Shown piece by piece: positions 1 through 35,034 of a stretch of 35,034 bases of DNA (positions within the stretch are counted from its first letter, which is position 1; each line of letters begins with the position of its first letter). The notes under the pieces are model-generated. The model had not been told where the DNA came from. It searched no databases and saw only the letters and a list, made by a program, of their open reading frames with translations. The translations under genes were made by a program, and so were the position numbers. Source of the DNA: a virus; the IMG/VR virus record IMGVR_UViG_3300029156_000010, positions 1 to 35,034 of that record; one strand, written 5' to 3'.

Positions 1-99
1 TTTCCCATTCAGCACATCCACGTCAAAAAGATAAGAAGTGTCTGAGTTGCCTACTATATCACCTGAAAGCACGCGCTCTTGCTTGGTGCCATTGTAGTT
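1..99. repeat. 99-bp direct terminal overlap, identical to 34936..35034. This is a circular-assembly closure or terminal redundancy.
   Basis: Bases 1-99 (tttcccattcagcacatcca...gtgccattgtagtt) recur exactly at 34936-35034. Confidence 0.95.
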
Positions 100-813
100 T
101 GTGTACCCGTTGTGAGCTATGTTTTGCGCTGATATTCTAAAATCTTCATTGTCTGAATCGAATCTAAAGCCACCGTCGTCATCTGTAAAAAGTGAAGCAC
201 CTGTTCCTAAATTAATATATACAAAATTGCCATTTTCACCCGCATTACGTCTCATGGTAGCTGAGTAATCAGAATGAACGCTGTTAGCTGTCGACCTAAA
301 ATCGAAGCCTGTGGTCGTTGCAAGTTCTGCTATGGCGCTTAAATAACCAAGTTCAACGATATTTGCATCACCCTTAACCATATGGTTAAAAAGGTTTATA
401 CGATCGGCATCGGTAGTTCCTTGAAAAGAGATTTGCTTACCGCCATGAGTAACAATGGTGTTGCTTGGCGTAAGAGATCCGCTACCCTGATAAATACTTT
501 GACCTAGACTAGAAGCTAAACCCCATGCGTAAAAACCACCCGCCGAAATAGGGACATAAAGATTTGCATCAATAGGGGCGTCAGGGAGCCCGTAGGTAAC
601 CACATCACCGGTAACATCAACTTCAGTAAAGTTCCCAGCTTCAAAAGTGTAGGATGATCCGCCAAGAGGTATATCGGTTGTGAATGTTGCAGGTTCGTCT
701 GTCAAGAGGGTTAAAACCTCTGTGCCTTGATTGTAGTTGAGGGATGTTACGTTTGACCCATCTCCACCACCACCGCCAGAGCCTTTTTTAGGATAGGTAG
801 CGTAGAAACTCAT
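1..813 (-). CDS. Tail fibre protein, N-terminal part. The gene continues across the circular junction into 33970..34935, giving about 592 aa in total.
   Basis: ATG at 813..811 overlaps the TGA of the upstream gene (ATGA). I checked all triplets from 813 down to 1 and found no stop. The frame is continuous with ORF 33970..35007 through the 99-bp overlap (..NYNGTKQERVLSGDIVGNSDTSYLFDVDVLNGK..). The N-terminus is MSFYATYPKKGSGGGGGDGSNVTSLNYNQGT. Confidence 0.8.
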   Translation of the reverse strand, partial: MSFYATYPKKGSGGGGGDGSNVTSLNYNQGTEVLTLLTDEPATFTTDIPLGGSSYTFEAGNFTEVDVTGDVVTYGLPDAPIDANLYVPISAGGFYAWGLASSLGQSIYQGSGSLTPSNTIVTHGGKQISFQGTTDADRINLFNHMVKGDANIVELGYLSAIAELATTTGFDFRSTANSVHSDYSATMRRNAGENGNFVYINLGTGASLFTDDDGGFRFDSDNEDFRISAQNIAHNGYTNYNGTKQERVLSGDIVGNSDTSYLFDVDVLNGK

Positions 814-12417: not shown

Positions 12418-12453
12418 TTTAAAAATAATAGGGGGCCATTATTGACCCCCTAT
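12418..12453 (-). terminator. Intrinsic terminator just downstream of the major capsid gene.
   Basis: In minus sense the sequence reads ATAGGGGG-TCAATAATGG-CCCCCTAT followed by TATTTTTAAA. The stem is 8 bp and perfect, and the T-rich tail exists only in the minus sense. Confidence 0.7.
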
Positions 12454-12465
12454 CATGTTACCAGC

Positions 12466-13704
12466 TTACGCTAGTTGAATGTTTCCGTTGTAGCCTGGAG
12501 CGTTACACTGTAGCTGACCGTAGTAGCCGTAGCGAACTTCCACACCATCGGATGATGCTTGACGCAACATTTGTAGACCATCGGTATCGATGACTCGAAC
12601 TGCTTTACCCATGGAGCAAAGCTTGAAAGTGCTTAATTGCACCATGAAAGCTCTGTCAGATGGACAGTTTTGATCAGGGATTACGTTGATCGGGCCTTTA
12701 GGACCGTTCACGAGAATACCGCGGAAGCCAATTTCTGGGTTCACTTTAAGATCTACATATTGCAATTTAGACTCCAAAGCTTTCTCAAGAGCTGCATAAC
12801 GATCGTAAGACATGAATGCGTGGTCAACTTTACCACCTTCACGTGCTACTCGGTTTGCACCTTCAATAAGGGCTTCTTCAATTGGATCGCCTGAACCATC
12901 GTAACGAATTCCGCCTAAGCGAGTCGTATCTACAGAACGGTCAACACCAAAGAAAGGAGTTGCGGTTGGAACTAAGTTCGGGATCCATGCGCGTAGACCA
13001 GAGGTCTTAAGTGCGAATGGAGAAGCGGTATCCTGACGGTCACCTGCGACGAACATTGTATCACCTAGCGCAAGGCCGGTAACGGTGTTCAGTACAACGT
13101 TGACTGTGAAGGTACCTGCTGAACGATCAATCGTTTGGATGATTGCTTGAGAACCAGCATCGCGTAGTGCGCCTGTGTTTTCAAATTCAGCAAAGACCAA
13201 TACCTGGCCTACTTCGAAGTTAGTGATTGAATTTGGATCAGTCAAAACAACGGTCTGAGTTGCTAGGTCGGTTGCAGCACCAATGGTACCGATTCCGCCG
13301 AAGCCTGTTCCGTATAGTTCGATTGCCAAAGAACGGGTTAAAGTGTTGATTGCGCCGTCGATTTCGGTTGTGGCAGCTTCCATAAAGGCATTTTCGTTAC
13401 CTTTTGAAGCTTCCAAAGTTTCGTTGTCGATGGTTGCAATTGAATAATCTTTTACACGAGTCAAAGTGAATTGATCGATTAAAGAGTTAGTGACCTGTCC
13501 ACGAGCTTGTGCTTGCGCAAAGTTCGCTGAACGTCCTTGAGGGTTGCCGTAAATCAATGGAACGGGTTTATTACGTCCACGGAATTCGGTTGATTTTGAT
13601 ACAAGTGCCAAGAACGGGTTGTCTTGATACACCATGTTTTCAACGCGTTGATCTGTATAATGTTCTTTCAGAGCAGCGTCGAAGGAGACCATATCTAAAG
13701 CCAT
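12466..13704 (-). CDS. Major capsid protein (412 aa).
   Basis: The size fits, and the gene follows the scaffold gene. It has a good SD (AAGAAGG) and its own downstream terminator. The N-terminus MALDMVSFDAALKEHYTDQRVENMVYQDNPFLALV is typical of phage coat proteins. Confidence 0.8.
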   Translation of the reverse strand: MALDMVSFDAALKEHYTDQRVENMVYQDNPFLALVSKSTEFRGRNKPVPLIYGNPQGRSANFAQAQARGQVTNSLIDQFTLTRVKDYSIATIDNETLEASKGNENAFMEAATTEIDGAINTLTRSLAIELYGTGFGGIGTIGAATDLATQTVVLTDPNSITNFEVGQVLVFAEFENTGALRDAGSQAIIQTIDRSAGTFTVNVVLNTVTGLALGDTMFVAGDRQDTASPFALKTSGLRAWIPNLVPTATPFFGVDRSVDTTRLGGIRYDGSGDPIEEALIEGANRVAREGGKVDHAFMSYDRYAALEKALESKLQYVDLKVNPEIGFRGILVNGPKGPINVIPDQNCPSDRAFMVQLSTFKLCSMGKAVRVIDTDGLQMLRQASSDGVEVRYGYYGQLQCNAPGYNGNIQLA

Positions 13705-13934
13705 GTGAGCCTTCTTTCATGATTAAATTAAAAAAATGACTGAGTTATCTCAATCTTGTTTTTAATCACTCATTCTACTGGCAGCAGCTCTCTTTTAAGT
13801 ACCTTTAGCCTATTATCTCTCGGCATAGATTTGCGATTTATACTGTATTGTATGGCCTATGCATTAGATGTCAATCACTTTCTTTGAAGCGTTTGGATCG
13901 GTTGATTTCAGCGTACAAGCGGTTGATTCTTTTC

Positions 13935-17053: not shown

Positions 17054-17290
17054 TTACGCAGAGTGAAACATTTCTTCTTCTGAGTATTCTTCTAAATACC
17101 CGTCAAAGTCCTGTCCCTTCTGTCCTGGATCACTTATCTGGGGACCCGTAGCTTTAATATCTGATTGAAAAGATGTGATTTGTATTTCAACGCCATCCAT
17201 GGCCATCTGAGAAATGCGATTTTTTTGCATTAATTCCATCAATTTTTCTACATCTTTGATGGTTTTGACTCGTTTTTTGGGTTCTGGCAT
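17054..17290 (-). CDS. Hypothetical small acidic protein (78 aa).
   Basis: ORF located between TerL and the portal gene. Confidence 0.55.
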   Translation of the reverse strand: MPEPKKRVKTIKDVEKLMELMQKNRISQMAMDGVEIQITSFQSDIKATGPQISDPGQKGQDFDGYLEEYSEEEMFHSA

Positions 17291-17323
17291 ACCAAAGAAT
17301 TATTGTACGTTTTGTAATAAATG

Positions 17324-18721
17324 TCAATAATCATCTTCTTCCCAAAATGCCTTGGCTTCGTTCTCTTCCATTTTTTCCGCTTCTTTTTCCCACCATTGGT
17401 CTACAGCCTCCACAGAATGAGGTGAAACCGGTTTTTCTATTGGGCGTGAAAGGTAACTGTAACAGAACCTGTACCCATATAGAGCGGCATCTGCCAAGTG
17501 ATTTGGACATGATGCATTTTCAATACGTTTAGACCCTCTGTCATCCCATATTAAGTTTAGCCACTCATTGACAAGATCGTATGTTTCAGACTCTACAAGC
17601 TTGATTACCCCTTGGATAAGGTCACCGTTCATTATCTCAATGAAGTCACTTTTACCTGTTTTGTCAGCAGCTACCCATGGAACATTATGACGGCGGCGCA
17701 TCTCTTCGACTGCTTGCTTGTTTGCCCCATCAATGATCATTTTCATGGGGTTGTAATCTTTCATCAATACTTTTGCGTACTCAGCCACGTCCGTGACGTC
17801 CATTTTCTTCTTTTTGTACGTGTGAACTATGTACGGATGGGGGTGGTGCTCATTCCAAGCGTAAACAACATAGGCTGTGTCGTCCTCGTATCCAATATCG
17901 CAAGCCACAACGTAGTTCCATTTTGGCATTTCTGGCAATTTTGAAACAAGGTTTCGGGCCTCTTGATATTTGTAGACAAGTTTATCTTCATCAACAACCC
18001 ACTGATTGAGATACATTTGTTTGTAAAGCGGGGTCTCAACAATAGCGGGGTTTTTCTCTATTAAGCCTTTGATTTGCCTATTAACAGGGCCACGGGTGTA
18101 TGGGTTGTCATCAAAAGTCCATTTGTGAACATCCCAACCAGGCTCTTTGCCGGTGGTAACTTCATTGAAAAATGTTTTGGTTCTATTTCCTGTGGTACCG
18201 ATCATGCAAATCGTACCGTTGTAATCAGCTACAGCAGGCTGGAGGGTTTTATATACAATTTCTTTAAGATCCACTCGGAACGATGCACATTCATCGATCA
18301 CAACGAGTTTAAACTTCTGACCAAGGGCTTTTTCTTGCTCTTTTTCACTCTGGTCCATACCTACGCAGTAAATAATAGATCCGTTTGCGAAGGTGACTGT
18401 TAATTCGTTTTGATTAAATTTTACTTTTATTTTAAAGCGGCGGGCGATGTCTTTGAAAACATCTTTAAACATAATTCTTTTGGCTGAGGCGCTTGTTAAA
18501 GCTACATACAGACAGGAAACGCCTGGATTTTCCAGAGCTTCTTTAAAAAGATACAACCCCATGCCATAAGATTTACCAGCACGTCTTGAACACTGCGCTG
18601 CCTTAAGGGTTGAAGGGTTGTTTATGAATTTTGTCTGGGTAGGAAAAGAATCACGAAGAAGATCCACTGTTTTTTCAGCAGCGATATACCTCTTTATGAT
18701 TGCTTTTTCTTTTCGATTCAC
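17324..18721 (-). CDS. terL: Terminase large subunit.
   Basis: It has a Walker A-like motif (CSRRAGKSYGMG) and a Walker B motif (KFKLVVIDECASF). The C-terminal half is nuclease-like with conserved acidic residues (VACDIGYEDD, MIIDGANK). The size is 465 aa and the gene lies upstream of the portal gene. Confidence 0.9.
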   Translation of the reverse strand: MNRKEKAIIKRYIAAEKTVDLLRDSFPTQTKFINNPSTLKAAQCSRRAGKSYGMGLYLFKEALENPGVSCLYVALTSASAKRIMFKDVFKDIARRFKIKVKFNQNELTVTFANGSIIYCVGMDQSEKEQEKALGQKFKLVVIDECASFRVDLKEIVYKTLQPAVADYNGTICMIGTTGNRTKTFFNEVTTGKEPGWDVHKWTFDDNPYTRGPVNRQIKGLIEKNPAIVETPLYKQMYLNQWVVDEDKLVYKYQEARNLVSKLPEMPKWNYVVACDIGYEDDTAYVVYAWNEHHPHPYIVHTYKKKKMDVTDVAEYAKVLMKDYNPMKMIIDGANKQAVEEMRRRHNVPWVAADKTGKSDFIEIMNGDLIQGVIKLVESETYDLVNEWLNLIWDDRGSKRIENASCPNHLADAALYGYRFCYSYLSRPIEKPVSPHSVEAVDQWWEKEAEKMEENEAKAFWEEDDY

Positions 18722-19315: not shown

Positions 19316-19737
19316 TTTGTTCCTTTCATGAACGGGTTATACATTAAATTGTATTTCTCTCTCAAGCAATCAAAGTAGCCTGTGGCATATGTGCAAATAA
19401 TAGGGTTTTTAGGGTTTGGCAATATAATGCCCAGTAGTTCGTTGAAAATGCCATATCTTCGATAAGAGTATTTTGTATATGCGTAGTGGATAACAAGAAC
19501 GTCATCAATGGTGGTGTAGGCTATGTAGGCAAAAATGTGGTTATGATCCTCTGGATTTACTGCAACAATGAAATTGCATGTATCGACTCTTTGCTCTACT
19601 TCGATCGATGTATTGTCAAAATACACCTGGTTGATCATTCTTTTGTTGTCCTCGGTCTTTCGATAGGACTTGATCCAAGTGCTTAGAAAAAAGTTTTTAT
19701 CCTTTGGTTCAGGGGGTCGTGTCTCAAAAATACTCAT
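19312..19737 (-). CDS. GNAT-like acetyltransferase-fold protein (141 aa).
   Basis: VLVIHYAYTKYSYRRYGIFNELLGIIL resembles GNAT motif A (hYVxxxxRrxGIxxxLL). The N-terminus is FFLSTWIKSYRK. Confidence 0.5.
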   Translation of the reverse strand: MSIFETRPPEPKDKNFFLSTWIKSYRKTEDNKRMINQVYFDNTSIEVEQRVDTCNFIVAVNPEDHNHIFAYIAYTTIDDVLVIHYAYTKYSYRRYGIFNELLGIILPNPKNPIICTYATGYFDCLREKYNLMYNPFMKGTK

Positions 19738-20006
19738 TTTTTACGCGCCAATATCTCTTTTGCACGAATACGAAGCTCTTCATTGGTCATGTTTTTGATT
19801 TCGTCATCGTCATCGTCTGGATTGTCTTTTAGGTTTTTGTCGATCATGACCAGTGTTTTGGCCATGTCTGTAACTGATCGGATATCATCTTTATCAAGAG
19901 TTGATAAGGAAGAGGCTTTGGCGTGGCGCGTGAGTTGCTCGTCCATAATAGAAATGGCTTTGTCTAGGGACTCTCTTGCATCTTTATCTTCTTCTTTGAG
20001 GCTCAA
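19734..20006 (-). CDS. Hypothetical acidic protein (90 aa), the first gene of the late unit. The start is a TTG.
   Basis: The ORF-track start codon is TTG, preceded by TAAGGT. It is helical and acidic, with a DDDDDE run. Confidence 0.5.
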   Translation of the reverse strand: MSLKEEDKDARESLDKAISIMDEQLTRHAKASSLSTLDKDDIRSVTDMAKTLVMIDKNLKDNPDDDDDEIKNMTNEELRIRAKEILARKK

Positions 20007-20165
20007 TATCTATACCTTATGTTTGTCGGGGTCTTTTCAAAATACAACCAATAACTAGACCCCTGTTCCCATATTGGAGAGAGAATATAATGATTTTAGT
20101 TGTTTTTTTCTCTATGTCAAATAGAATCTATTCTTAAACATAAAAGTGTTTTTACTTTGTCTTTT

Positions 20166-20201
20166 AAACCCTGCTGGAATGGTTCTAGTGGGGTTTTTTT
20201 T
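20166..20201 (+). terminator. Plus-strand-specific intrinsic terminator inside the control region.
   Basis: The hairpin is CCCTGCTGGAA-TGG-TTCTAGTGGGG, an 11-bp stem that includes 3 G-U pairs, followed by T8 (20194-20201). In the antisense RNA the G-U pairs become C-A mismatches. Confidence 0.65.
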
Positions 20202-20242
20202 GGCGGAAACGCAATTTTTTTATACCATATTTTTTTGTAAAT

Positions 20243-20286
20243 AAAAAAAAGCGCCCTGTATTTCTTGACGAAATGAAGCGGGCGCC
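20243..20286 (-). terminator. Minus-strand intrinsic terminator inside the control region, upstream of the late operon.
   Basis: In minus sense the sequence reads GCGCCC..ATTTC-GTCAA-GAAAT..GGGCGC followed by U8 (the A8 run at 20243-20250 on the plus strand). Confidence 0.6.
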
Positions 20287-20379
20287 ATAACATGTTTGTT
20301 GTAGCTCAATCATTGTAGCAAATAACTGAGCAAACCACCATCTTTTTAGGTGTTCTAGGTGTAAAACAGTAACTTCCTA

Positions 20380-20400
20380 CCCGTTTCGGGGGCGTTTTTT
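20380..20400 (+). terminator. Weak terminator-like hairpin with a T6 tail.
   Basis: The hairpin is CCCG-TTT-CGGG, then GGCG and TTTTTT. The stem is only 4 bp. Confidence 0.3.
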
Positions 20401-20631
20401 AATTGGTGAATATAGGGCAGACATAACAAGGCGGTCTGTAACCACAAAAGAGCGTAATTTATACAAGTTGCAATAAAAAGAGAGTGCCTACCCCAGCTTT
20501 TCTTTTCGGCGTGATTGCGGACACCACGAGCCCCCAGCCCCCAGCTCGAAGCCCCGATAGATAGGGGTATTAGCCTTGTATTACCTAAAGTAAACTAGAC
20601 CAAAAAAACCAAATAATTTTTGCCTTTCTGT

Positions 20632-20661
20632 TTGACATTGTGTAATTACACATGGTAGAAT
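20632..20661 (+). promoter_or_regulatory. Early sigma70-type promoter with an embedded 14-bp palindromic operator.
   Basis: The -35 is TTGACA (20632-37), the spacer is 18 nt, and the -10 is TAGAAT (20656-61). The spacer contains the perfect palindrome TGTGTAATTACACA (20639-52). Confidence 0.75.
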
Positions 20662-20686
20662 GATTACATCAACAAGAAAGGATTGT

Positions 20687-20968
20687 ATGATAGCAGGAAA
20701 TAGAAGTTATGACGTCGATGTGGACGGTAAGGAATATGAAATTAGATACAAGGTTTCATGCTCTAAGGCATCTACAGAGGCATACGGAGTAGTGAAGTGG
20801 CATTGGGACATTGAACTATATGATCTAGAAGTATGGGAGTATGACGAAGCAAGTAATACAGACGAAAACATTACAAAAGAATTGTCGGTAGAAACCTTTG
20901 ATAAGTTTTTTGAGAAAATGCAAAACACTTTCGGGGGGCACGAAGATGACGCAGAATACACCATATAA
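20687..20968 (+). CDS. Hypothetical early protein (93 aa).
   Basis: I prefer the start at 20687 (SD AAGAAAGGA) because the ATG at 20660 lies inside the -10 hexamer. Confidence 0.6.
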   Translation: MIAGNRSYDVDVDGKEYEIRYKVSCSKASTEAYGVVKWHWDIELYDLEVWEYDEASNTDENITKELSVETFDKFFEKMQNTFGGHEDDAEYTI

Positions 20969-21071
20969 GGAACAAATTGAAGATTTGGTAGAATCAGCCA
21001 TTATTTTTTTTGAAGATTACGAAGAGTTAAGGAAGCAATGGAAAACAACAGAAGAGGTGACAAATGAATAA
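20946..21071 (+). CDS. Hypothetical small early protein (41 aa), below the ORF-track length cutoff.
   Basis: My own translation is MTQNTPYKEQIEDLVESAIIFFEDYEELRKQWKTTEEVTNE. It fills the gap between neighbouring genes and overlaps both. Confidence 0.4.
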   Translation: MTQNTPYKEQIEDLVESAIIFFEDYEELRKQWKTTEEVTNE

Positions 21072-21423: not shown

Positions 21424-21719
21424 CTAAAAAACTAAACCTACCCCACCTACGATCTGTAGGGGGTAAAAGGATAAAGGATTATGGCACTCTTTTATTTGAT
21501 TATACACCAGAGTTTATAACTACGGCAGATGACAACTGGGACGCTATGCTTGATGCTTTGGAAGAGGCTAAAGAGATAATGCAAAACATGTCCCATGAAG
21601 TGGACTGTAGGCAAGGAAAGCAACATTCAAAAGAAGGTTATGGCTACCCCGATAGGTGCAAGTGCGATGTAGATAATGAATGTAAGGATTGGTTATCTCA
21701 ATTTGAGGGAGAAGAATAA
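21420..21719 (+). CDS. Hypothetical early protein (99 aa), Cys-containing.
   Basis: The SD is GGAGGA, and the start has an ATGA overlap with the lipoprotein stop. Confidence 0.6.
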   Translation: MTKKLNLPHLRSVGGKRIKDYGTLLFDYTPEFITTADDNWDAMLDALEEAKEIMQNMSHEVDCRQGKQHSKEGYGYPDRCKCDVDNECKDWLSQFEGEE

Positions 21720-23898: not shown

Positions 23899-23923
23899 CA
23901 ATGTTAAATACATGTTCTACATT
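23895..23923 (+). promoter_or_regulatory. Second sigma70-type promoter, upstream of the HTH gene.
   Basis: The -35 is TTGACA (23895-900), the spacer is 17 nt, and the -10 is TACATT (23918-23). CATTGTGTAA (23920-29) is identical to the operator-flank 10-mer at 20636-45. Confidence 0.65.
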
Positions 23924-23946
23924 GTGTAAATAGGAAGTAGATAAAA

Positions 23947-24129
23947 ATGGAAGCAAATATAGCAAAAGAAATAAGATTGGCAAAAGGTTACGAAGTGAAA
24001 GAGTTGCACTTTTTGAAAGGATACAGCACAAGCGCTATTTACTCATATGAGTCTGGCGACCGTGAAATACCCGATCATTACGCAGCAATGCTTCTAGAAC
24101 TAGAAGAGAATAAAAAAGGTCGTAGCTAG
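23947..24129 (+). CDS. XRE-family (Cro/CI-type) helix-turn-helix regulator (60 aa).
   Basis: IRLAKGYEVKELHFLKGYSTSAIYSYESGDREIP fits the HTH_XRE pattern. Confidence 0.8.
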   Translation: MEANIAKEIRLAKGYEVKELHFLKGYSTSAIYSYESGDREIPDHYAAMLLELEENKKGRS

Positions 24130-24147
24130 GTGAAGTTAGCTACGACC
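24118..24147 (+). other. Perfect 11-bp stem hairpin that encloses the HTH gene stop codon.
   Basis: The hairpin is GGTCGTAGCTA-ggtgaagt-TAGCTACGACC. No T-run follows it. Confidence 0.6.
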
Positions 24148-24231
24148 GGATATAGTTTGGTGAACATCCCGAAGGACATAGTCTGATTTTATACCAGATT
24201 GTGCCCTCCGGTCAACAAGGAGAGCAAGAAA

Positions 24232-26069: not shown

Positions 26070-26464
26070 TGAACGATAGACAAAAACTTGAAGAAATTCA
26101 AAAGCGAATCGAAAAAATCATAGAACTAGAAAAAGAAGGAGTCAAACAGGATCTAACCCCCTCAAACTTAGACGATTTAGGCACCCAGGCGGCCTTTGCT
26201 TTCTATAAATTTTACAAAACAAGAGACAAAGTGATTAGTGAAATGGCTTTAAACTCAGAAAGCATGGACTCAAATGAAGTTAAAGCGTTTGTTACATCGT
26301 TGGACATTACCGAAGATGTCATGGATATGCTTTACAAAAAATGCAACCTGCACGAGAGAGCCATTAAAACAAAACTTGCTGAGGAAAAAATCAAAGAGCT
26401 TTTGGATGATGGATTCGAGGAAGGAGAAGAGCATGTACACAGAAGAGAGAGAACAATTAATTAG
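26069..26464 (+). CDS. Hypothetical acidic helical protein (131 aa).
   Basis: ORF with a TAATG overlap. Confidence 0.6.
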   Translation: MNDRQKLEEIQKRIEKIIELEKEGVKQDLTPSNLDDLGTQAAFAFYKFYKTRDKVISEMALNSESMDSNEVKAFVTSLDITEDVMDMLYKKCNLHERAIKTKLAEEKIKELLDDGFEEGEEHVHRRERTIN

Positions 26465-27690: not shown

Positions 27691-28566
27691 ATGTTTGACG
27701 AAGTTCTAAAAAAGCATCCAGAGGTTATGTATCGAGGGTATGATAATTACTGGGATTTTCTTGAAAAAGCCAAAAGAAAACCATTAAGCGATATGGACTC
27801 TTCCAGGGATCCTGGAGGTAGATGTTGGTCAGGATCTACTTCTTTTGAAGAAACAGTAGACTGGGCTGAGCGCGGTTGGAACAAAGAAATAAAGTGCGAA
27901 CAATTTATCCCAAACAGCGTCAAAGAGTACGTTAAGGAAGTATCTGGAACGTCTTATAGTTGGGATACATGTGGAGCAATACCAGATGTTGAAAGGTATT
28001 GCTCTGGATTGCCAGAGGACATGATTGACTTTGTTCAAAGCCCTATTCAAAAAAGAATTATTTCCCTGGGCTTCAATGGAGCTATTCTCGGAGGTATTGA
28101 CCCAGAATCAGTTGAAAAAAGAGGGTCTTTTATATGTGAATGCATAGATTTAATCGAGTCTATGGGGTTTCAGTGTAACGTTACGGCCATTTTTCTTTCA
28201 GCCGGTCAGGTAGATATGGGAAAAGGGGACATTGACGATGGATTTAGCTTGATTGGAGTAGATCTTAAGAACGCTGGATACGTAATGAACCCAGACATTA
28301 TCAAGTTTGCCGCCTGCAACGCTTCTTTTTTCAGAAGATTGATTTTTTCCATAAGAGAAAATGATGAAATTATGTACCCAAAGTACCTGAAGCATACAGA
28401 TTCCTATGGAAGAACCTCGGAATTTGAAGATATCGGAGACGTGGAACATGGTTTTGATGTGTATTTTCCTCACTTGGATGACAATGATTTTGATGAAATT
28501 GTTCAAAAAACTTTAGAGCAAATGGAAGAGTGCGGCGTTGTAAAGAAAGGGGTCATCAATGGATAA
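27691..28566 (+). CDS. Hypothetical partner protein of the AAA+ ATPase (291 aa).
   Basis: Its ATG lies 2 nt after the ATPase stop. It is a Cys-containing alpha/beta protein. No MIDAS DxSxS motif was seen. Confidence 0.6.
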   Translation: MFDEVLKKHPEVMYRGYDNYWDFLEKAKRKPLSDMDSSRDPGGRCWSGSTSFEETVDWAERGWNKEIKCEQFIPNSVKEYVKEVSGTSYSWDTCGAIPDVERYCSGLPEDMIDFVQSPIQKRIISLGFNGAILGGIDPESVEKRGSFICECIDLIESMGFQCNVTAIFLSAGQVDMGKGDIDDGFSLIGVDLKNAGYVMNPDIIKFAACNASFFRRLIFSIRENDEIMYPKYLKHTDSYGRTSEFEDIGDVEHGFDVYFPHLDDNDFDEIVQKTLEQMEECGVVKKGVING

Positions 28567-29011
28567 TTGTCAAGAATGTCCAACCTGTGGACACAAAGTA
28601 AAGACGTATAAGTTTTCTTTGGGCAATGGGTATGTTGCTCCTTTAATAAGGGCTTTCAAAAAAGGAGAAGGAGTCGCTTTTAAAACCGCTGACGTAGTGG
28701 GGGGGAATCAAAGCGCGTATACAAACTTTCAAAAGTTAGCATATTGGGGCCTTATAGAGACAGCCTACTCCGTTGATACAGCTAAAACAAAAGGCTTATG
28801 GTCTTTAACTGACCAGGGTCGCATGTTCGTGCTTAACAGCGTTGCAATGCCAAAAACAGCCGTTCGCATGAACAAAAAAACCATGGGCTTTGAAGGTGAA
28901 GAAGTTTTCTTTGCTGACCTTGTTGACGATTGGCAGGTTTATGCGGATTTTAGACAGCAGGCAATGGACTCTTTAGAGGGTCAAAGGAGTTTATTTTTAA
29001 AAAGAGAATGA
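28559..29011 (+). CDS. Zinc-finger plus winged-helix-like DNA-binding protein (150 aa).
   Basis: The N-terminus is CQECPTCGH. KLAYWGLIE..GLWSLTDQGRMF resembles a wHTH recognition helix and wing. Confidence 0.55.
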   Translation: MDNCQECPTCGHKVKTYKFSLGNGYVAPLIRAFKKGEGVAFKTADVVGGNQSAYTNFQKLAYWGLIETAYSVDTAKTKGLWSLTDQGRMFVLNSVAMPKTAVRMNKKTMGFEGEEVFFADLVDDWQVYADFRQQAMDSLEGQRSLFLKRE

Positions 29012-29726: not shown

Positions 29727-29972
29727 ATGGACGATCAAGACAAAGCTGTTTTGGACCTGTACTACTGGCAACGCGGAGGTGACAGTTCGAGCTTCACCTC
29801 CATGTTGTACAATCTTTTAATGAAAGCTGATTCACGGAACAGCGCAAAGCTCGCTTTGGGATTTCGTGAACACTGGATCGCCCTTAAAATGTGGCAATCA
29901 GCAGAAAAAGAGGGTGACGACCTCTTTGATTTATATAGAGAAAAGGGAGTGATCCCAAAAGAGAAAAAATAA
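29727..29972 (+). CDS. Hypothetical protein (81 aa), the last gene of the early unit.
   Basis: Its stop at 29970-72 abuts the stop of the converging minus-strand gene. Confidence 0.6.
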   Translation: MDDQDKAVLDLYYWQRGGDSSSFTSMLYNLLMKADSRNSAKLALGFREHWIALKMWQSAEKEGDDLFDLYREKGVIPKEKK

Positions 29973-30362
29973 TCAATTAACCGAAAAAGGCATGTCGTCA
30001 AGATCGTCTAATTTTTCTGATTGGTAGTTGTCAAACATTATTTCAGCTACCTTTCGGAAAGTTTGGCGGTTTTCTGTTCCGCTTCCTTCAAATTTCTCGT
30101 GACATGTCGGGCAATGGGGTACCAGATTGCCATATTCCTGCTTATTTGCCCCACCCATGCCTTTTGCTTTAACATGGCTGGCATGGACAAGGTAATCTCC
30201 GTACTTATCGACTGAGCCCTCGTTTCGGCACTCATGATCTAGTTTCCAACCAACACATTTGTGTCTACGAATCCAATGTGCATATTCTGGATGTTGCCAA
30301 TACGGCTTTTTCTTTGATTTCTTTTTCTTCTTACCTTTAAAAAACGTTTTTACTTGAGCCAC
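29973..30362 (-). CDS. HNH/NinG-like putative endonuclease (about 129 aa from the GTG).
   Basis: HASHVKAKGMGGANKQEYGNLVPHCPTCHEKF has an H..H..G.G..(D/E)..vP.C..CH..F pattern. I prefer the GTG at 30362, preceded by GAGGGGGG, over the overlapping ATG at 30398. Confidence 0.55.
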   Translation of the reverse strand: MAQVKTFFKGKKKKKSKKKPYWQHPEYAHWIRRHKCVGWKLDHECRNEGSVDKYGDYLVHASHVKAKGMGGANKQEYGNLVPHCPTCHEKFEGSGTENRQTFRKVAEIMFDNYQSEKLDDLDDMPFSVN

Positions 30363-33973: not shown

Positions 33974-35034
33974 TGTGGCATTTTCACTTCCGCATCAATG
34001 GACAAACCTTGTGGAGGTATTCCGCCAGTCAACGTCCCAAACCTTACTTGTAAATAATCGTTTTGTGCGATTGTATTGTTGGTACAAATTAAAGTTAGCG
34101 TGGTTTCAGTTGTAAGTGTACCACTTGCAATGGACACACCTGATTTCCATATTTGTATAGCAATAGAACCACCTCTTGCAAGACCCTGTGTAAAAGTAAC
34201 TTCCACAGATTCAACGCGACCCCCAACCATTGTTCTATGGAAGTTTATGTATTCTGGGTAAACAATGCTTGGGGTTACGTCAACCCCTTCACCAAGTATA
34301 CTTATATTCAAAAACTGGTTTTGGATCTCCACGGCGCCTAAAACAGAGGCCACCGTTCTTTGAGAAATTTCTTTTGTAGTAGGGTTTCTAACAAGCAAAG
34401 ATGGTGCAGTATCGAAAGTTGGTGGGGCTTGCTCAAGTATTACGTCAGGAGCATCCAAAACAAGGTCAAGTCCAGCCCTATAAGTTGCGTTACCCGTGTT
34501 TGACACCATTAATATGTCGCCCGACTCGGTGTAGTAATCTATGTTTCCGCTATCAAGCCCAACCGTAAAAGAGTTTGTAGTAGTTGAGAAAATTTGAAGC
34601 TCACCACCGCCAACAAGTTCCACCTGTCTATTGGGAACTGTGCCATTTGCATTGTAAAGAGTGTCAACCGACCCACCTCCACCGCCGACATTGCCAGGCT
34701 GGATAAGGTAAAATTTACCATTACTGGGGTTTAAGAAAGCTACAACCACATGGTTTCCCGTACCTAAAGGAGTTAAGTCCCCATCAAATAACGCAGCATC
34801 AAAAGTTATATCGTTTGGCGAATCGTTGTTTATATACATGTTGTAGCGTTGACCAGCATTAGACCCCCACCTTGTGTCGGATGCCTGCCATCCAATAACC
34901 AAGCCGCCACTGTGGCCTGAATTTAACGAAAGAATTTTCCCATTCAGCACATCCACGTCAAAAAGATAAGAAGTGTCTGAGTTGCCTACTATATCACCTG
35001 AAAGCACGCGCTCTTGCTTGGTGCCATTGTAGTT
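33970..35034 (-). CDS. Tail fibre protein, C-terminal part of the wrapped gene (same gene as 1..813).
   Basis: The frame is open to the window end. The GTG 'start' at 35007 in the ORF track is internal. A second GGGGG motif (QPGNVGGGGGSVDTLYNANGT) is present, and the C-terminus is beta-rich. Confidence 0.8.
   Translation of the reverse strand, partial: NYNGTKQERVLSGDIVGNSDTSYLFDVDVLNGKILSLNSGHSGGLVIGWQASDTRWGSNAGQRYNMYINNDSPNDITFDAALFDGDLTPLGTGNHVVVAFLNPSNGKFYLIQPGNVGGGGGSVDTLYNANGTVPNRQVELVGGGELQIFSTTTNSFTVGLDSGNIDYYTESGDILMVSNTGNATYRAGLDLVLDAPDVILEQAPPTFDTAPSLLVRNPTTKEISQRTVASVLGAVEIQNQFLNISILGEGVDVTPSIVYPEYINFHRTMVGGRVESVEVTFTQGLARGGSIAIQIWKSGVSIASGTLTTETTLTLICTNNTIAQNDYLQVRFGTLTGGIPPQGLSIDAEVKMPQ
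34936..35034. repeat. Second copy of the 99-bp terminal overlap (same as 1..99).
   Basis: Exact identity with bases 1-99, read directly from the sequence. Confidence 0.95.

What the first reader, a model, noticed from the sequence alone, without database searches (positions are those of the whole stretch)
20007..20686. 680-bp control region with face-to-face strand-specific terminators upstream of the whole late operon
All genes diverge from this one non-coding region, so the late (minus-strand) promoter must lie inside it. Two intrinsic terminators sit inside the region, 40 bp apart and pointing at each other.
- The plus-sense terminator is at 20166-20201. Its 11-bp stem uses 3 G-U pairs and is followed by U8, so it can only fold well in plus-sense RNA.
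- The minus-sense terminator is at 20243-20286. It has a GC-clamped hairpin followed by U8.
Any minus-sense transcript that starts between 20290 and 20650 would stop at about 20243, before reaching the first late gene at 20006. This resembles the lambda pR'-tR' (6S RNA) arrangement, where late expression needs a Q-type antiterminator.
An alternative is that the region encodes about 100-nt small RNAs. One candidate unit is the perfect TATAAT at 20086-91 with the terminator at 20201. A second is TTGACG-17-TAACAT at 20265-93 with the weak terminator at 20400.
A compact 35-kb phage keeping 680 bp non-coding is notable in itself.
Basis: partly seen in the sequence, partly recalled or inferred. Interest (0 to 1): 0.7.

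Follow-up and report, generated by a model that had tools for sequence, protein, structure and literature searches.

The report
Phage divergent promoter region with terminators
The 680-bp gap is the start region of an uncultured phage's two gene blocks; the two terminators inside it are real sequence features but lie upstream of the best late-promoter candidate, so they more likely end short internal transcripts than gate late genes as in lambda.

Summary
Window 20007-20686 has no credible ORF. It contains two strong hairpin+U8 intrinsic-terminator signatures that point at each other, 41 bp apart: T(+) at 20166-20201 and T(-) at 20286->20243. T(+) is made strand-specific by three G-U pairs.

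The lambda pR'-tR'/Q reading is not supported. The best late-promoter candidate is TTGACA-16-TAAAAT at 20120->20093 on the minus strand. It is one of five 11/12 sigma-70 matches in the genome, against 0.7 expected by chance. No Q, sigma or RNA polymerase family was found.

The most likely picture is an insulated divergent control region. P_late and P_early (20632-20661, with a 14-bp palindrome in its spacer) sit at the outer edges. The two terminators end short transcripts that start inside the gap: about 62 nt on the minus strand and about 70-105 nt on the plus strand. This shields each operon promoter from polymerases coming from the other side.

The central 340 bp is unexplained; it could be an origin or the genome ends. 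No alignable relatives exist, so conservation could not be tested. This is an ordinary kind of element in a new phage lineage.

The parts
20007..20686 (.). Non-coding divergent control region between the first late gene (minus strand, start 20006) and the first early gene (plus strand, ATG 20687).
   Evidence: ORF lists. Gene calls on the source contig. No family hit for the 58-aa ORF.
20093..20120 (-). P_late candidate: TTGACA-16-TAAAAT, predicted TSS about 20086, 80-nt leader.
   Evidence: 11/12 match. Five such matches in the genome against 0.7 +/- 0.8 in 100 shuffles; all lie in gaps and are co-oriented with genes.
20028..20066 (-). Hairpin GGGGUCU...AGACCCC in the predicted late-mRNA leader, with no U tract.
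   Evidence: Fold of 20007-20090 on the minus strand. The fold is not better than shuffles overall (z -0.6).
20120..20132 (.). 13-bp perfect palindrome AATAGAATCTATT abutting the -35 box of P_late, centred at about -41. Candidate regulator site.
   Evidence: Palindrome scan. The position is read from the sequence. Palindromes of this size are not enriched genome-wide, so only the position is suggestive.
20086..20091 (+). Perfect TATAAT with no -35 and no TG, face-to-face with and overlapping P_late. Candidate start (about 20098) of a plus-sense RNA of about 104 nt. TAGAAT at 20122-27 is an alternative that would give about 68 nt.
   Evidence: Fold of 20095-20206 gives z -3.4, driven mainly by the terminator.
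20166..20201 (+). T(+): plus-sense intrinsic terminator, 14-bp stem with 3 G-U pairs followed by U8.
   Evidence: dG -17.5 against -8.4 on the other strand.
20202..20242 (.). 41-bp spacer rich in T runs (T7, T7). It holds a GCG-GAAA-CGC mini-hairpin followed by U7 in the plus sense.
   Evidence: The mini-hairpin is not significant (z -0.4).
20243..20286 (-). T(-): minus-sense intrinsic terminator, GC-clamped hairpin with an internal loop, followed by U8.
   Evidence: dG -16.6 and z -3.3 to -3.5.
20312..20320 (-). Extended -10 TGcTACAAT. Candidate promoter (TSS about 20305) for a minus-sense RNA of about 62 nt ending at T(-). A near-repeat GCTACAAC follows it.
   Evidence: Fold of 20240-20305 on the minus strand gives z -3.45. 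The -35 box is poor (2/6).
20265..20293 (+). TTGACG-17-TAACAT, a 9/12 weak plus-sense promoter candidate. Its -35 box lies in the loop of the T(-) hairpin.
   Evidence: 9/12 matches are at chance frequency.
20294..20631 (.). Central 340 bp of unknown function, relatively GC-rich (0.42), with no ORF above 30 aa.
20632..20661 (+). P_early: TTGACA-18-TGgTAGAAT (11/12 plus extended -10), TSS about 20668, SD GAAAGGA, ATG at 20687.
20639..20652 (.). 14-bp perfect palindrome TGTGTAATTACACA in the P_early spacer. Candidate operator.
   Evidence: The 11-mer ACATTGTGTAA is shared with the internal plus-strand promoter at 23919.

Best explanation
The gap is the divergent transcription control region of a circular, roughly 34.9-kb podophage genome that appears to be transcribed by the host sigma-70 RNA polymerase.

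Layout:
- The two operon promoters sit at the outer edges, each next to its operon. P_late is at 20120->20093 on the minus strand. P_early is at 20632-20661 on the plus strand.
- The two intrinsic terminators lie between them. Each lies upstream of the operon promoter that fires in the same direction.

Consequences:
- The terminators cannot attenuate operon transcripts made from those promoters.
- They end short non-coding transcripts that start inside the gap. One is a minus-sense RNA of about 62 nt, from the extended -10 at 20320-20312 to T(-). The other is a plus-sense RNA of about 70-105 nt, from TATAAT 20086-91 or TAGAAT 20122-27 to T(+).
- They thereby stop any polymerase that comes from the other half of the region, or from round-the-circle read-through, from running into and occluding P_late or P_early.

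Shown by computation:
- The hairpin energies, U tracts and strand asymmetry.
- The positions and statistical enrichment of near-consensus promoters.
- The absence of ORFs.

Inferred:
- That these promoters and terminators are used in vivo.
- The RNA sizes.
- The insulating role.
- Whether the short RNAs have a function of their own.
For: 1. Both terminators are strong and strand-specific. Two of the four best hairpin+U-run sites in the genome lie in this gap.
2. 11/12 sigma-70 matches number 5, against 0.7 +/- 0.8 in 100 dinucleotide shuffles. All five lie in intergenic gaps and are co-oriented with the downstream gene: 20632+, 20120-, 17327-, 13874- and 33184-. The consensus therefore has predictive value in this genome. 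P_late and P_early share flanking sequence (TTCTnTTTGACAT; inverted repeat I1).
3. P_late lies 123 bp downstream of the U tract of T(-). P_early lies 431 bp downstream of the U tract of T(+).
4. There is a precedent in the same genome. A 10/12 minus-strand promoter (24215->24186) is followed after about 30 nt by the strongest terminator in the genome (24147->24110). This gives an RNA of about 70 nt with z -6.5.
5. There is a precedent in a relative. L008 (terminase 56% identical) has a 665-bp gap at the same place. It contains one 10/12 promoter plus terminator unit of about 75 nt.
6. No ORF, Rfam family, tRNA, iteron or DnaA box offers an alternative content for the terminator-flanked parts.
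Against: - The promoters proposed for the two short RNAs are weak or incomplete. One is a perfect -10 without a -35 box. The other is an extended -10 with a 2/6 -35 box.
- No conservation test was possible. The only other copy is 100% identical. The next relatives (terminase <=66% identical) do not align in the gap.
- The face-to-face pair is not reproduced in L008, which has one terminator pointing towards the early genes, or in L001, which has none that is strong.
- No complementary target for either RNA was found in the phage genome.
- Divergent promoters normally need no terminators between them, so 'insulation' is a functional guess.
- A near-consensus promoter on a 'late' operon is itself odd and may mean the timing logic is different from what is assumed.
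Confidence: 0.45

Rival explanations
1. Lambda-like late control. A constitutive minus-sense promoter upstream of T(-) makes a short terminated RNA, like 6S RNA. An early phage protein then makes RNA polymerase terminator-resistant, so that it reads through T(-) into the late operon.
For: - T(-) is strong and is correctly oriented upstream of the late operon.
- An extended -10 (TGcTACAAT) lies 19 nt upstream of the hairpin and is followed by a -10-like near-repeat (GCTACAAC) in the initial transcribed region.
- The late block contains at least one internal strong terminator, just after the capsid gene (12450->12423), that a processive antiterminator could override.
- Several early proteins are orphans of unknown function.
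Against: - An 11/12 sigma-70 promoter lies between T(-) and the first late gene. Two more lie inside the late block.
- The near-repeat lacks the T at hexamer position 6, which by established knowledge of sigma region 2 is needed for a sigma-dependent pause.
- No gene is co-oriented upstream of T(-).
- No Q, sigma or antiterminator family or PDB match exists for any early protein.
- The arrangement is not seen in L008 or L001.
Confidence: 0.08
2. The gap, especially its central 340 bp and the A/T-tract spacer, is a DNA-level element. It could be a host-dependent replication origin with a non-coding transcript, as in lactococcal c2-type phages. It could also be the physical genome ends or packaging site, as in phiEco32/7-11-type podophages. 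On this reading the terminators delimit the transcripts that cross it.
For: - In Ceduovirus phages the ori lies in the non-coding region between the divergent early and late modules. It is flanked by two early-sense promoters, has no ORF or RBS, and works without phage proteins (PMC7150918).
- In 7-11/phiEco32 the long divergent intergenic region is formed by the genome ends (PMC4331800).
- This phage has SU10-type structural genes.
- No recognisable replication initiator, helicase, primase or polymerase was found among the proteins scanned.
- The region holds 5 of the genome's 37 homopolymer runs of >=7 nt within 150 bp.
- The cumulative GC skew starts to rise here, but this is confounded with gene orientation.
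Against: - There are no iterons or tandem repeats beyond a 2.4-copy heptamer, and no DnaA boxes.
- There is no similarity to any of 50,697 phage records, which include Ceduoviruses.
- The upstream early-sense promoter candidate scores only 9/12, which is chance level.
- The assembly is circular with arbitrary ends, so the physical termini are unknown.
Confidence: 0.17
3. The terminators are pure backstops with no dedicated short RNAs. They stop transcription that has escaped the unterminated convergent junction at 29972/29973 and travelled antisense around the circular or concatemeric genome, before it re-enters the promoter region.
For: - The convergent gene ends abut with no terminator between them.
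- T(+) is the only strong plus-sense terminator in the genome.
- Further minus-sense hairpin+U sites lie inside the plus-strand early genes at 26163, 24147 and 21476. They sit along the path of late-operon read-through.
Against: - Untranslated antisense RNA running for 9-25 kb would normally be stopped by Rho long before it arrived (established knowledge).
- A terminator at the convergence point would be the economical solution, and none is there.
- At least the 24147 terminator has its own 10/12 promoter 30 nt upstream. This favours dedicated short units.
Confidence: 0.15
4. The region encodes a small protein. The candidate is the 58-aa minus-strand ORF 20293->20117, which was called as a gene on the JGI contig. 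On this reading the hairpins are incidental.
For: The JGI gene call at L004 4445-4621.
Against: - The ORF has no SD.
- It runs through both hairpins and the A/T runs, which explains its Lys- and Phe-rich sequence.
- It was not called on the identical Logan contig.
- It has no Pfam hit.
- It ends inside the -35 box of P_late.
Confidence: 0.03

Closest known systems
Lambda pR'-tR' (6S RNA) late-gene module with Q antitermination
   Same: A strong intrinsic terminator lies upstream of, and co-oriented with, a long late operon. A possible short promoter-proximal terminated RNA of about 62 nt is present.
   Different: - A near-consensus sigma-70 promoter lies between the terminator and the late genes.
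- No Q-like gene is present, and no gene is co-oriented upstream of the terminator.
- The upstream promoter is only a -35-less extended -10.
- The -10-like repeat lacks the conserved final T.
- There are further strong promoters inside the late block.
Lambda oop RNA and similar short, terminator-ended phage RNAs
   Same: The units are promoter plus intrinsic terminator, 60-105 nt long. The same genome has a clear oop-like unit at 24215->24110, antisense to the 3' end of a small HTH gene.
   Different: The two RNAs predicted in the gap are not antisense to any gene. Their promoters are weaker. No target was found.
Origin region of lactococcal c2-type (Ceduovirus) phages
   Same: Both are non-coding regions of about 600 bp between divergently oriented early and late modules. 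Both are flanked by early-sense promoter candidates and lack ORFs and RBSs. Both phages lack recognisable replication genes.
   Different: There is no sequence similarity. The upstream early-sense promoter is weak. Replication activity is untested. The c2 description does not involve face-to-face terminators.
Long divergent intergenic region of phiEco32/7-11 (SU10-like C3 podophages)
   Same: The structural genes are of the same Pfam families (SU10 portal, capsid, adaptor). Two divergent gene clusters are separated by an unusually long intergenic region that carries the promoters.
   Different: Those phages are about 77 kb, encode their own sigma factor, and have repeated phage-specific promoter motifs. 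Their intrinsic terminator pair is reported at the convergent end of the clusters, not in the divergent region (PMC4331800).

Membership tests
Intrinsic (Rho-independent) terminator | A stable GC-containing hairpin immediately followed by a U tract on the transcribed strand. | tested here: met
   T(+) has dG -17.5 and U8. T(-) has dG -16.6 and U8. Their z-scores are -3.9 and -3.3.
Intrinsic (Rho-independent) terminator | Strand specificity: it works in one sense only. | tested here: met
   The opposite strand of T(+) folds to -8.4 and has no U tract, because the three G-U pairs become C-A. The T(-) hairpin folds on both strands, but only the minus sense has the U tract.
Intrinsic (Rho-independent) terminator | RNA 3' ends at the U tract in vivo or in vitro. 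| not testable with these tools
   No transcript data are available for this uncultured phage.
Intrinsic (Rho-independent) terminator | Conservation or covariation of the stem in relatives. | tested here: inconclusive
   The only other copy is 100% identical. More distant relatives do not align. Exact-pattern scans of the viral and genome collections found nothing.
Lambda-type Q antitermination module (pR'-qut-tR') | A constitutive sigma-70 promoter directly upstream of the terminator. | tested here: inconclusive
   Only TGcTACAAT (20320->20312) is present, with a 2/6 -35 box.
Lambda-type Q antitermination module (pR'-qut-tR') | A -10-like sigma-dependent pause element in the initial transcribed region. 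| tested here: inconclusive
   TACAAC lies at about +3 to +8. It has the A at position 2 but lacks the T at position 6.
Lambda-type Q antitermination module (pR'-qut-tR') | A Q gene, normally just upstream and co-oriented. | tested here: not met
   No co-oriented gene lies upstream of T(-). No Q family hit appears in Pfam, PHROGs or NCBIfam, and there is no PDB sequence match for the early proteins. The AF2 model of 28559-29011 was unusable (pLDDT 32), so a fold-level relative is not excluded.
Lambda-type Q antitermination module (pR'-qut-tR') | The late operon has no independent promoter downstream of the terminator. | tested here: not met
   An 11/12 promoter lies at 20120->20093, and two more lie at 17327 and 13874. 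These are predictions only.
c2-type phage origin in the divergent early/late gap | A non-coding region between divergently oriented early and late modules, without ORF or RBS. | tested here: met
   The family is defined as in PMC7150918.
c2-type phage origin in the divergent early/late gap | Flanked by two early-sense promoters (PE1, PE2). | tested here: inconclusive
   P_early scores 11/12. The upstream candidate TTGACG-17-TAACAT scores only 9/12, which is chance level.
c2-type phage origin in the divergent early/late gap | Sequence similarity to one of the known ori groups (c2, bIL67, 923). | tested here: not met
   A blastn 'distant' search of window 19700-21000 against 50,697 phage records found no match.
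c2-type phage origin in the divergent early/late gap | Supports plasmid replication. | not testable with these tools
   This needs cloning in the (unknown) host.
Known RNA families (Rfam 15) | A match at or near the gathering score. | tested here: not met
   The best hits score 13-19 bits against gathering scores of 39-100, with E >= 0.3. No tRNA or tmRNA was found.

The most novel reading that the evidence does not exclude
Late expression really is gated at T(-). A promoter-proximal transcript of about 62 nt from the extended -10 at 20320-20312 would be terminated early in infection. One of the orphan early proteins, for example the Zn-ribbon/winged-helix-like 150-aa product of 28559-29011, would be a new, non-Q family of processive antiterminator. 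The consensus promoter at 20120 would then be repressed or occluded by the overlapping face-to-face TATAAT promoter. A second unexcluded reading is that the convergent short RNAs control a host-dependent, RNA-primed origin (ColE1/c2-like).
Probability: 0.08. Interest if true: 0.65.

Novelty: new member of a known kind. Interest (0 to 1): 0.3.

Why it matters
If the model is right, this is a compact example of how a small phage without its own RNA polymerase lays out its control region.
- Near-consensus host-type promoters sit at the edges.
- Candidate operator palindromes lie in or next to both promoters.
- Strand-specific terminators between the promoters keep the two halves from interfering with each other.
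- Short terminated RNAs are produced as a by-product or as regulators.

This gives concrete, cheap predictions (TSS positions, 3' ends, RNA sizes) for an uncultured lineage with no isolated relative; the nearest isolated phage shares 25% terminase identity. It does not change any general concept. Its main practical value is to prevent the region from being annotated as a lambda-type late-antitermination module or as a 58-aa gene.

Tried and rejected
- **Conservation and covariation.** The only other copy (Logan SRR4039783) is identical. Terminase-based searches of the viral, metagenome and genome collections, and of the 5.8-billion-protein index, gave relatives of <=66% identity. Their gaps do not align by blastn or translated search. 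The first early gene and the candidate regulator have no homologues in the index. Exact-pattern scans for the operator/promoter and both hairpins found nothing.
- **Survey of 80 related loci.** I tried to survey the gap architecture automatically, but my simple ORF-based gene caller failed even on the window itself. I dropped the survey. Gene-called relatives L089 and L090 have a different layout, with lysis genes upstream of the terminase gene.
- **Rfam, tRNA and tmRNA.** Nothing was found.
- **Structured RNA in the central 340 bp.** The z-scores are only -1.3 and -1.6.
- **Origin signatures.** There are no DnaA boxes or iterons. The GC skew is confounded with gene orientation.
- **Q-like protein.** Pfam, PHROGs, NCBIfam and PDB sequence searches were negative. 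The single-sequence AF2 model was unusable, so no fold search was run.
- **Trans targets of the predicted RNAs in the phage genome.** No complementarity beyond chance was found.
- **Palindrome enrichment.** Genome-wide there is none. Only the positions of the two promoter-associated palindromes are suggestive.
- **The 'weak terminator at 20400'.** It is rejected as no better than chance.
Full report
**What the window is.** The window is a complete, circularly assembled phage genome of about 34.9 kb. Its first and last 99 bases are identical. It matches JGI contig Ga0168037_100018 from sample 3300029169, and a 4.6-kb Logan contig from SRR4039783 carries an identical copy of the region. The structural genes hit the SU10-type portal, capsid and adaptor families. 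The endolysin is a single-domain M15 peptidase. The early block carries ERF, YqaJ, an AAA ATPase and a 60-aa HTH_3 protein. No RNA polymerase, sigma factor, integrase or recognisable replication initiator or polymerase was found among the proteins scanned. The nearest isolated phages share only about 25% terminase identity. On the circular map, the minus-strand block runs 20006 -> 1 -> 35034 -> 29973 and the plus-strand block runs 20687 -> 29972. All genes therefore do diverge from 20007-20686. They converge at 29972/29973, where the two stop codons abut with no terminator between them.

- The gap has no credible ORF. The longest (58 aa on the minus strand, 46 aa on the plus strand) run straight through the hairpins and homopolymer runs, have no SD and hit no family.
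- T(+) at 20166-20201 has a 14-bp stem (11 bp without the three basal A-U pairs), three G-U pairs and U8. Its dG is -17.5 kcal/mol with z -3.9. The opposite strand reaches only -8.4 and has no U tract.
- T(-) at 20286->20243 has a GC clamp, an internal loop and U8. Its dG is -16.6 with z -3.3. Only the minus sense has the U tract.
- The two 3' ends face each other across 41 bp that contain two T7 runs.
- In a genome-wide scan, hairpins of <= -13 kcal/mol followed by >=7 T in 8 occur at four distinct sites, against 1.6 per dinucleotide shuffle. Two of the four lie in this 2% of the genome.

**Where the promoters are.**
- The consensus scan finds two 11/12 sigma-70 matches in the gap. P_early is TTGACA-18-TAGAAT at 20632-20661, with a TG extension. 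A minus-strand promoter, TTGACA-16-TAAAAT, lies at 20120->20093.
- I tested whether such matches mean anything in this genome. There are five 11/12 matches, against 0.7 +/- 0.8 in 100 dinucleotide shuffles, and no shuffle reached five. Matches of 9-10/12 are at chance level.
- All five are co-oriented with the next gene. Four (20632+, 20120-, 17327-, 13874-) lie in gaps between genes. The fifth (33184-) lies at the end of a small ORF just upstream of the next gene.
- The consensus is therefore informative here, and 20120->20093 is the best candidate for the late-operon promoter. Its predicted TSS is about 20086, which gives an 80-nt leader.
- This promoter lies 123 bp downstream of the U tract of T(-). 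In the same way, P_early lies 431 bp downstream of T(+).
- Each terminator therefore sits upstream of the operon promoter that fires in its own direction. Neither can attenuate transcripts made from those promoters.

**Consequence for the lambda analogy.**
That is what the prediction shows, though only in silico.
- No gene is co-oriented upstream of T(-).
- The single-sequence AF2 model of 28559-29011 was unusable (pLDDT 32), so a fold-level relative cannot be excluded.
- Upstream of T(-), the only promoter-like element is a -35-less extended -10 (TGcTACAAT, 20320->20312). A near-repeat GCTACAAC follows it in the initial transcribed region. This loosely recalls a sigma-dependent pause site, but it lacks the conserved final T.
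- Two further 11/12 promoters lie inside the late block (17327 and 13874), and there is a strong terminator right after the capsid gene (12450->12423). These features indicate several transcription units rather than one processive late transcript.
- I put this reading at about 0.08.

**What the terminators most likely do.**
- Convergent terminators between divergent promoters imply transcription that starts inside the gap.
- Candidate starts exist for both. On the minus strand, the extended -10 at 20320-20312 would give an RNA of about 62 nt ending at T(-); the fold of 20240-20305 has z -3.45.
- On the plus strand, the perfect TATAAT at 20086-91 would give an RNA of about 104 nt ending at T(+). 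It has no -35 box and overlaps P_late face-to-face. TAGAAT at 20122-27 would give about 68 nt.
- Such short units have precedents. In this genome, a 10/12 minus-strand promoter (24215->24186) is followed about 30 nt later by the strongest terminator (24147->24110). This gives an RNA of about 70 nt (z -6.5), antisense to the 3' end of the HTH_3 gene, with an oop-like geometry.
- In L008, a relative with 56% terminase identity and a 665-bp gap at the same place, a 10/12 promoter plus terminator form a unit of about 75 nt.
- My best model (0.45) is an insulated divergent control region. The terminators end short intra-gap transcripts and so keep polymerases from one half from running into the operon promoter of the other half.
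- Whether the short RNAs have a function of their own is open. I found no complementary target in the phage genome.

**Candidate regulator sites.**
- A perfect 14-bp palindrome TGTGTAATTACACA fills the P_early spacer.
- The 11-mer ACATTGTGTAA occurs exactly twice in the genome: at P_early, and at the internal plus-strand promoter in front of the HTH_3 gene.
- A perfect 13-bp palindrome AATAGAATCTATT abuts the -35 box of P_late, centred near -41.
- Palindromes of this size are not enriched genome-wide (23 observed against 20 expected). Only their positions are suggestive.

**What remains unexplained.**
- The central 340 bp (20294-20631) is GC-richer than its flanks and has no ORF above 30 aa.
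- It has no Rfam hit and no marked folding excess (z -1.3 and -1.6).
- It has no iterons or DnaA boxes.
- It shows no similarity to any related locus or phage record.
- Two literature analogies fit its position. In lactococcal c2-type phages, the host-dependent origin lies in the non-coding gap between the divergent early and late modules, between two early-sense promoters (PMC7150918). In the SU10-related phages 7-11 and phiEco32, the long divergent gap is formed by the genome ends (PMC4331800).
- Neither analogy can be tested here. Together I give them about 0.17.
- A pure 'read-around backstop' role for the terminators gets about 0.15. It is suggested by the unterminated convergent junction and by further minus-sense terminators inside the early genes.

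**Limits.**
- Nothing here is experimental.
- No relative is close enough for a covariation test.
- The face-to-face pair is not reproduced in the two relatives with the same layout: L008 has one terminator and L001 has none that is strong.
- The promoters assigned to the short RNAs are weak.

**Verdict.** The features are real, but the element is of an ordinary kind. It is a divergent promoter region with intrinsic terminators and probably short non-coding transcripts, in a phage lineage that has no cultured member. Novelty: new member of a known kind. Interest: 0.3.

Noticed in passing
window 24110-24215 (minus strand): A 10/12 promoter (TTGACC-18-TAAAAT) is followed by the strongest terminator in the genome. 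This predicts an RNA of about 70 nt (z -6.5) antisense to the 3' end of the 60-aa HTH_3 gene 23947-24129. The geometry is like lambda oop.
   Followed up: partly
window 20635-20645 and 23919-23929: The 11-mer ACATTGTGTAA occurs exactly twice in the genome, both times at plus-strand promoters: P_early, and the promoter of the HTH_3 gene. Together with the 14-bp palindrome at 20639-20652, this looks like an operator for a Cro-like repressor.
   Followed up: partly
window 29960-29985: The plus and minus gene blocks converge with abutting stop codons (29972/29973) and no terminator. Each block's transcripts should therefore read antisense into the other block.
   Followed up: partly
window 26127-26163 and 21424-21476 (minus strand): Minus-sense hairpin+U-run signatures lie inside plus-strand early coding sequences. 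The first is G-U-dependent and therefore strand-specific. They could be antisense terminators or ends of antisense RNAs.
   Followed up: no
window 12418-12470 and 13705-13934 (minus strand): The capsid gene (12466-13704) has its own 11/12 promoter (13874->13847). Its roughly 135-nt leader carries a weak hairpin flanked by A5 and U7. A strong terminator (dG -22) follows directly after the gene. This is a self-contained high-expression unit within the late block.
   Followed up: partly
window 17290-17327 (minus strand): The 11/12 promoter TTGACA-17-AATAAT ends 9 nt before the ATG at 17290. The mRNA for the 78-aa gene and the portal gene may therefore be leaderless or nearly so.
   Followed up: no
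window 20117-20293 (minus strand); L004 4445-4621: The JGI annotation calls a 58-aa gene that runs through both terminators and ends in the -35 box of P_late. It has no SD and no family hit, and it was not called on the identical Logan contig. It is probably spurious.
   Followed up: yes
L008 5684-6347: A relative with 56% terminase identity has a 665-bp non-coding gap at the same position. It contains one promoter+terminator unit of about 75 nt (5916->5808) that points towards the early genes, plus 430 bp of unexplained non-AT-rich sequence. It has no Rfam hit and no similarity to the window.
   Followed up: partly
window 1-99 and 34936-35034: There is an exact 99-bp terminal overlap, which shows the contig is a circular assembly. 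The window is a rotated copy of the 35,059-bp JGI contig.
   Followed up: yes
window 374-389: A 16-bp perfect palindrome TTAACCATATGGTTAA, the longest in the genome, lies in the distal part of the minus-strand block.
   Followed up: no
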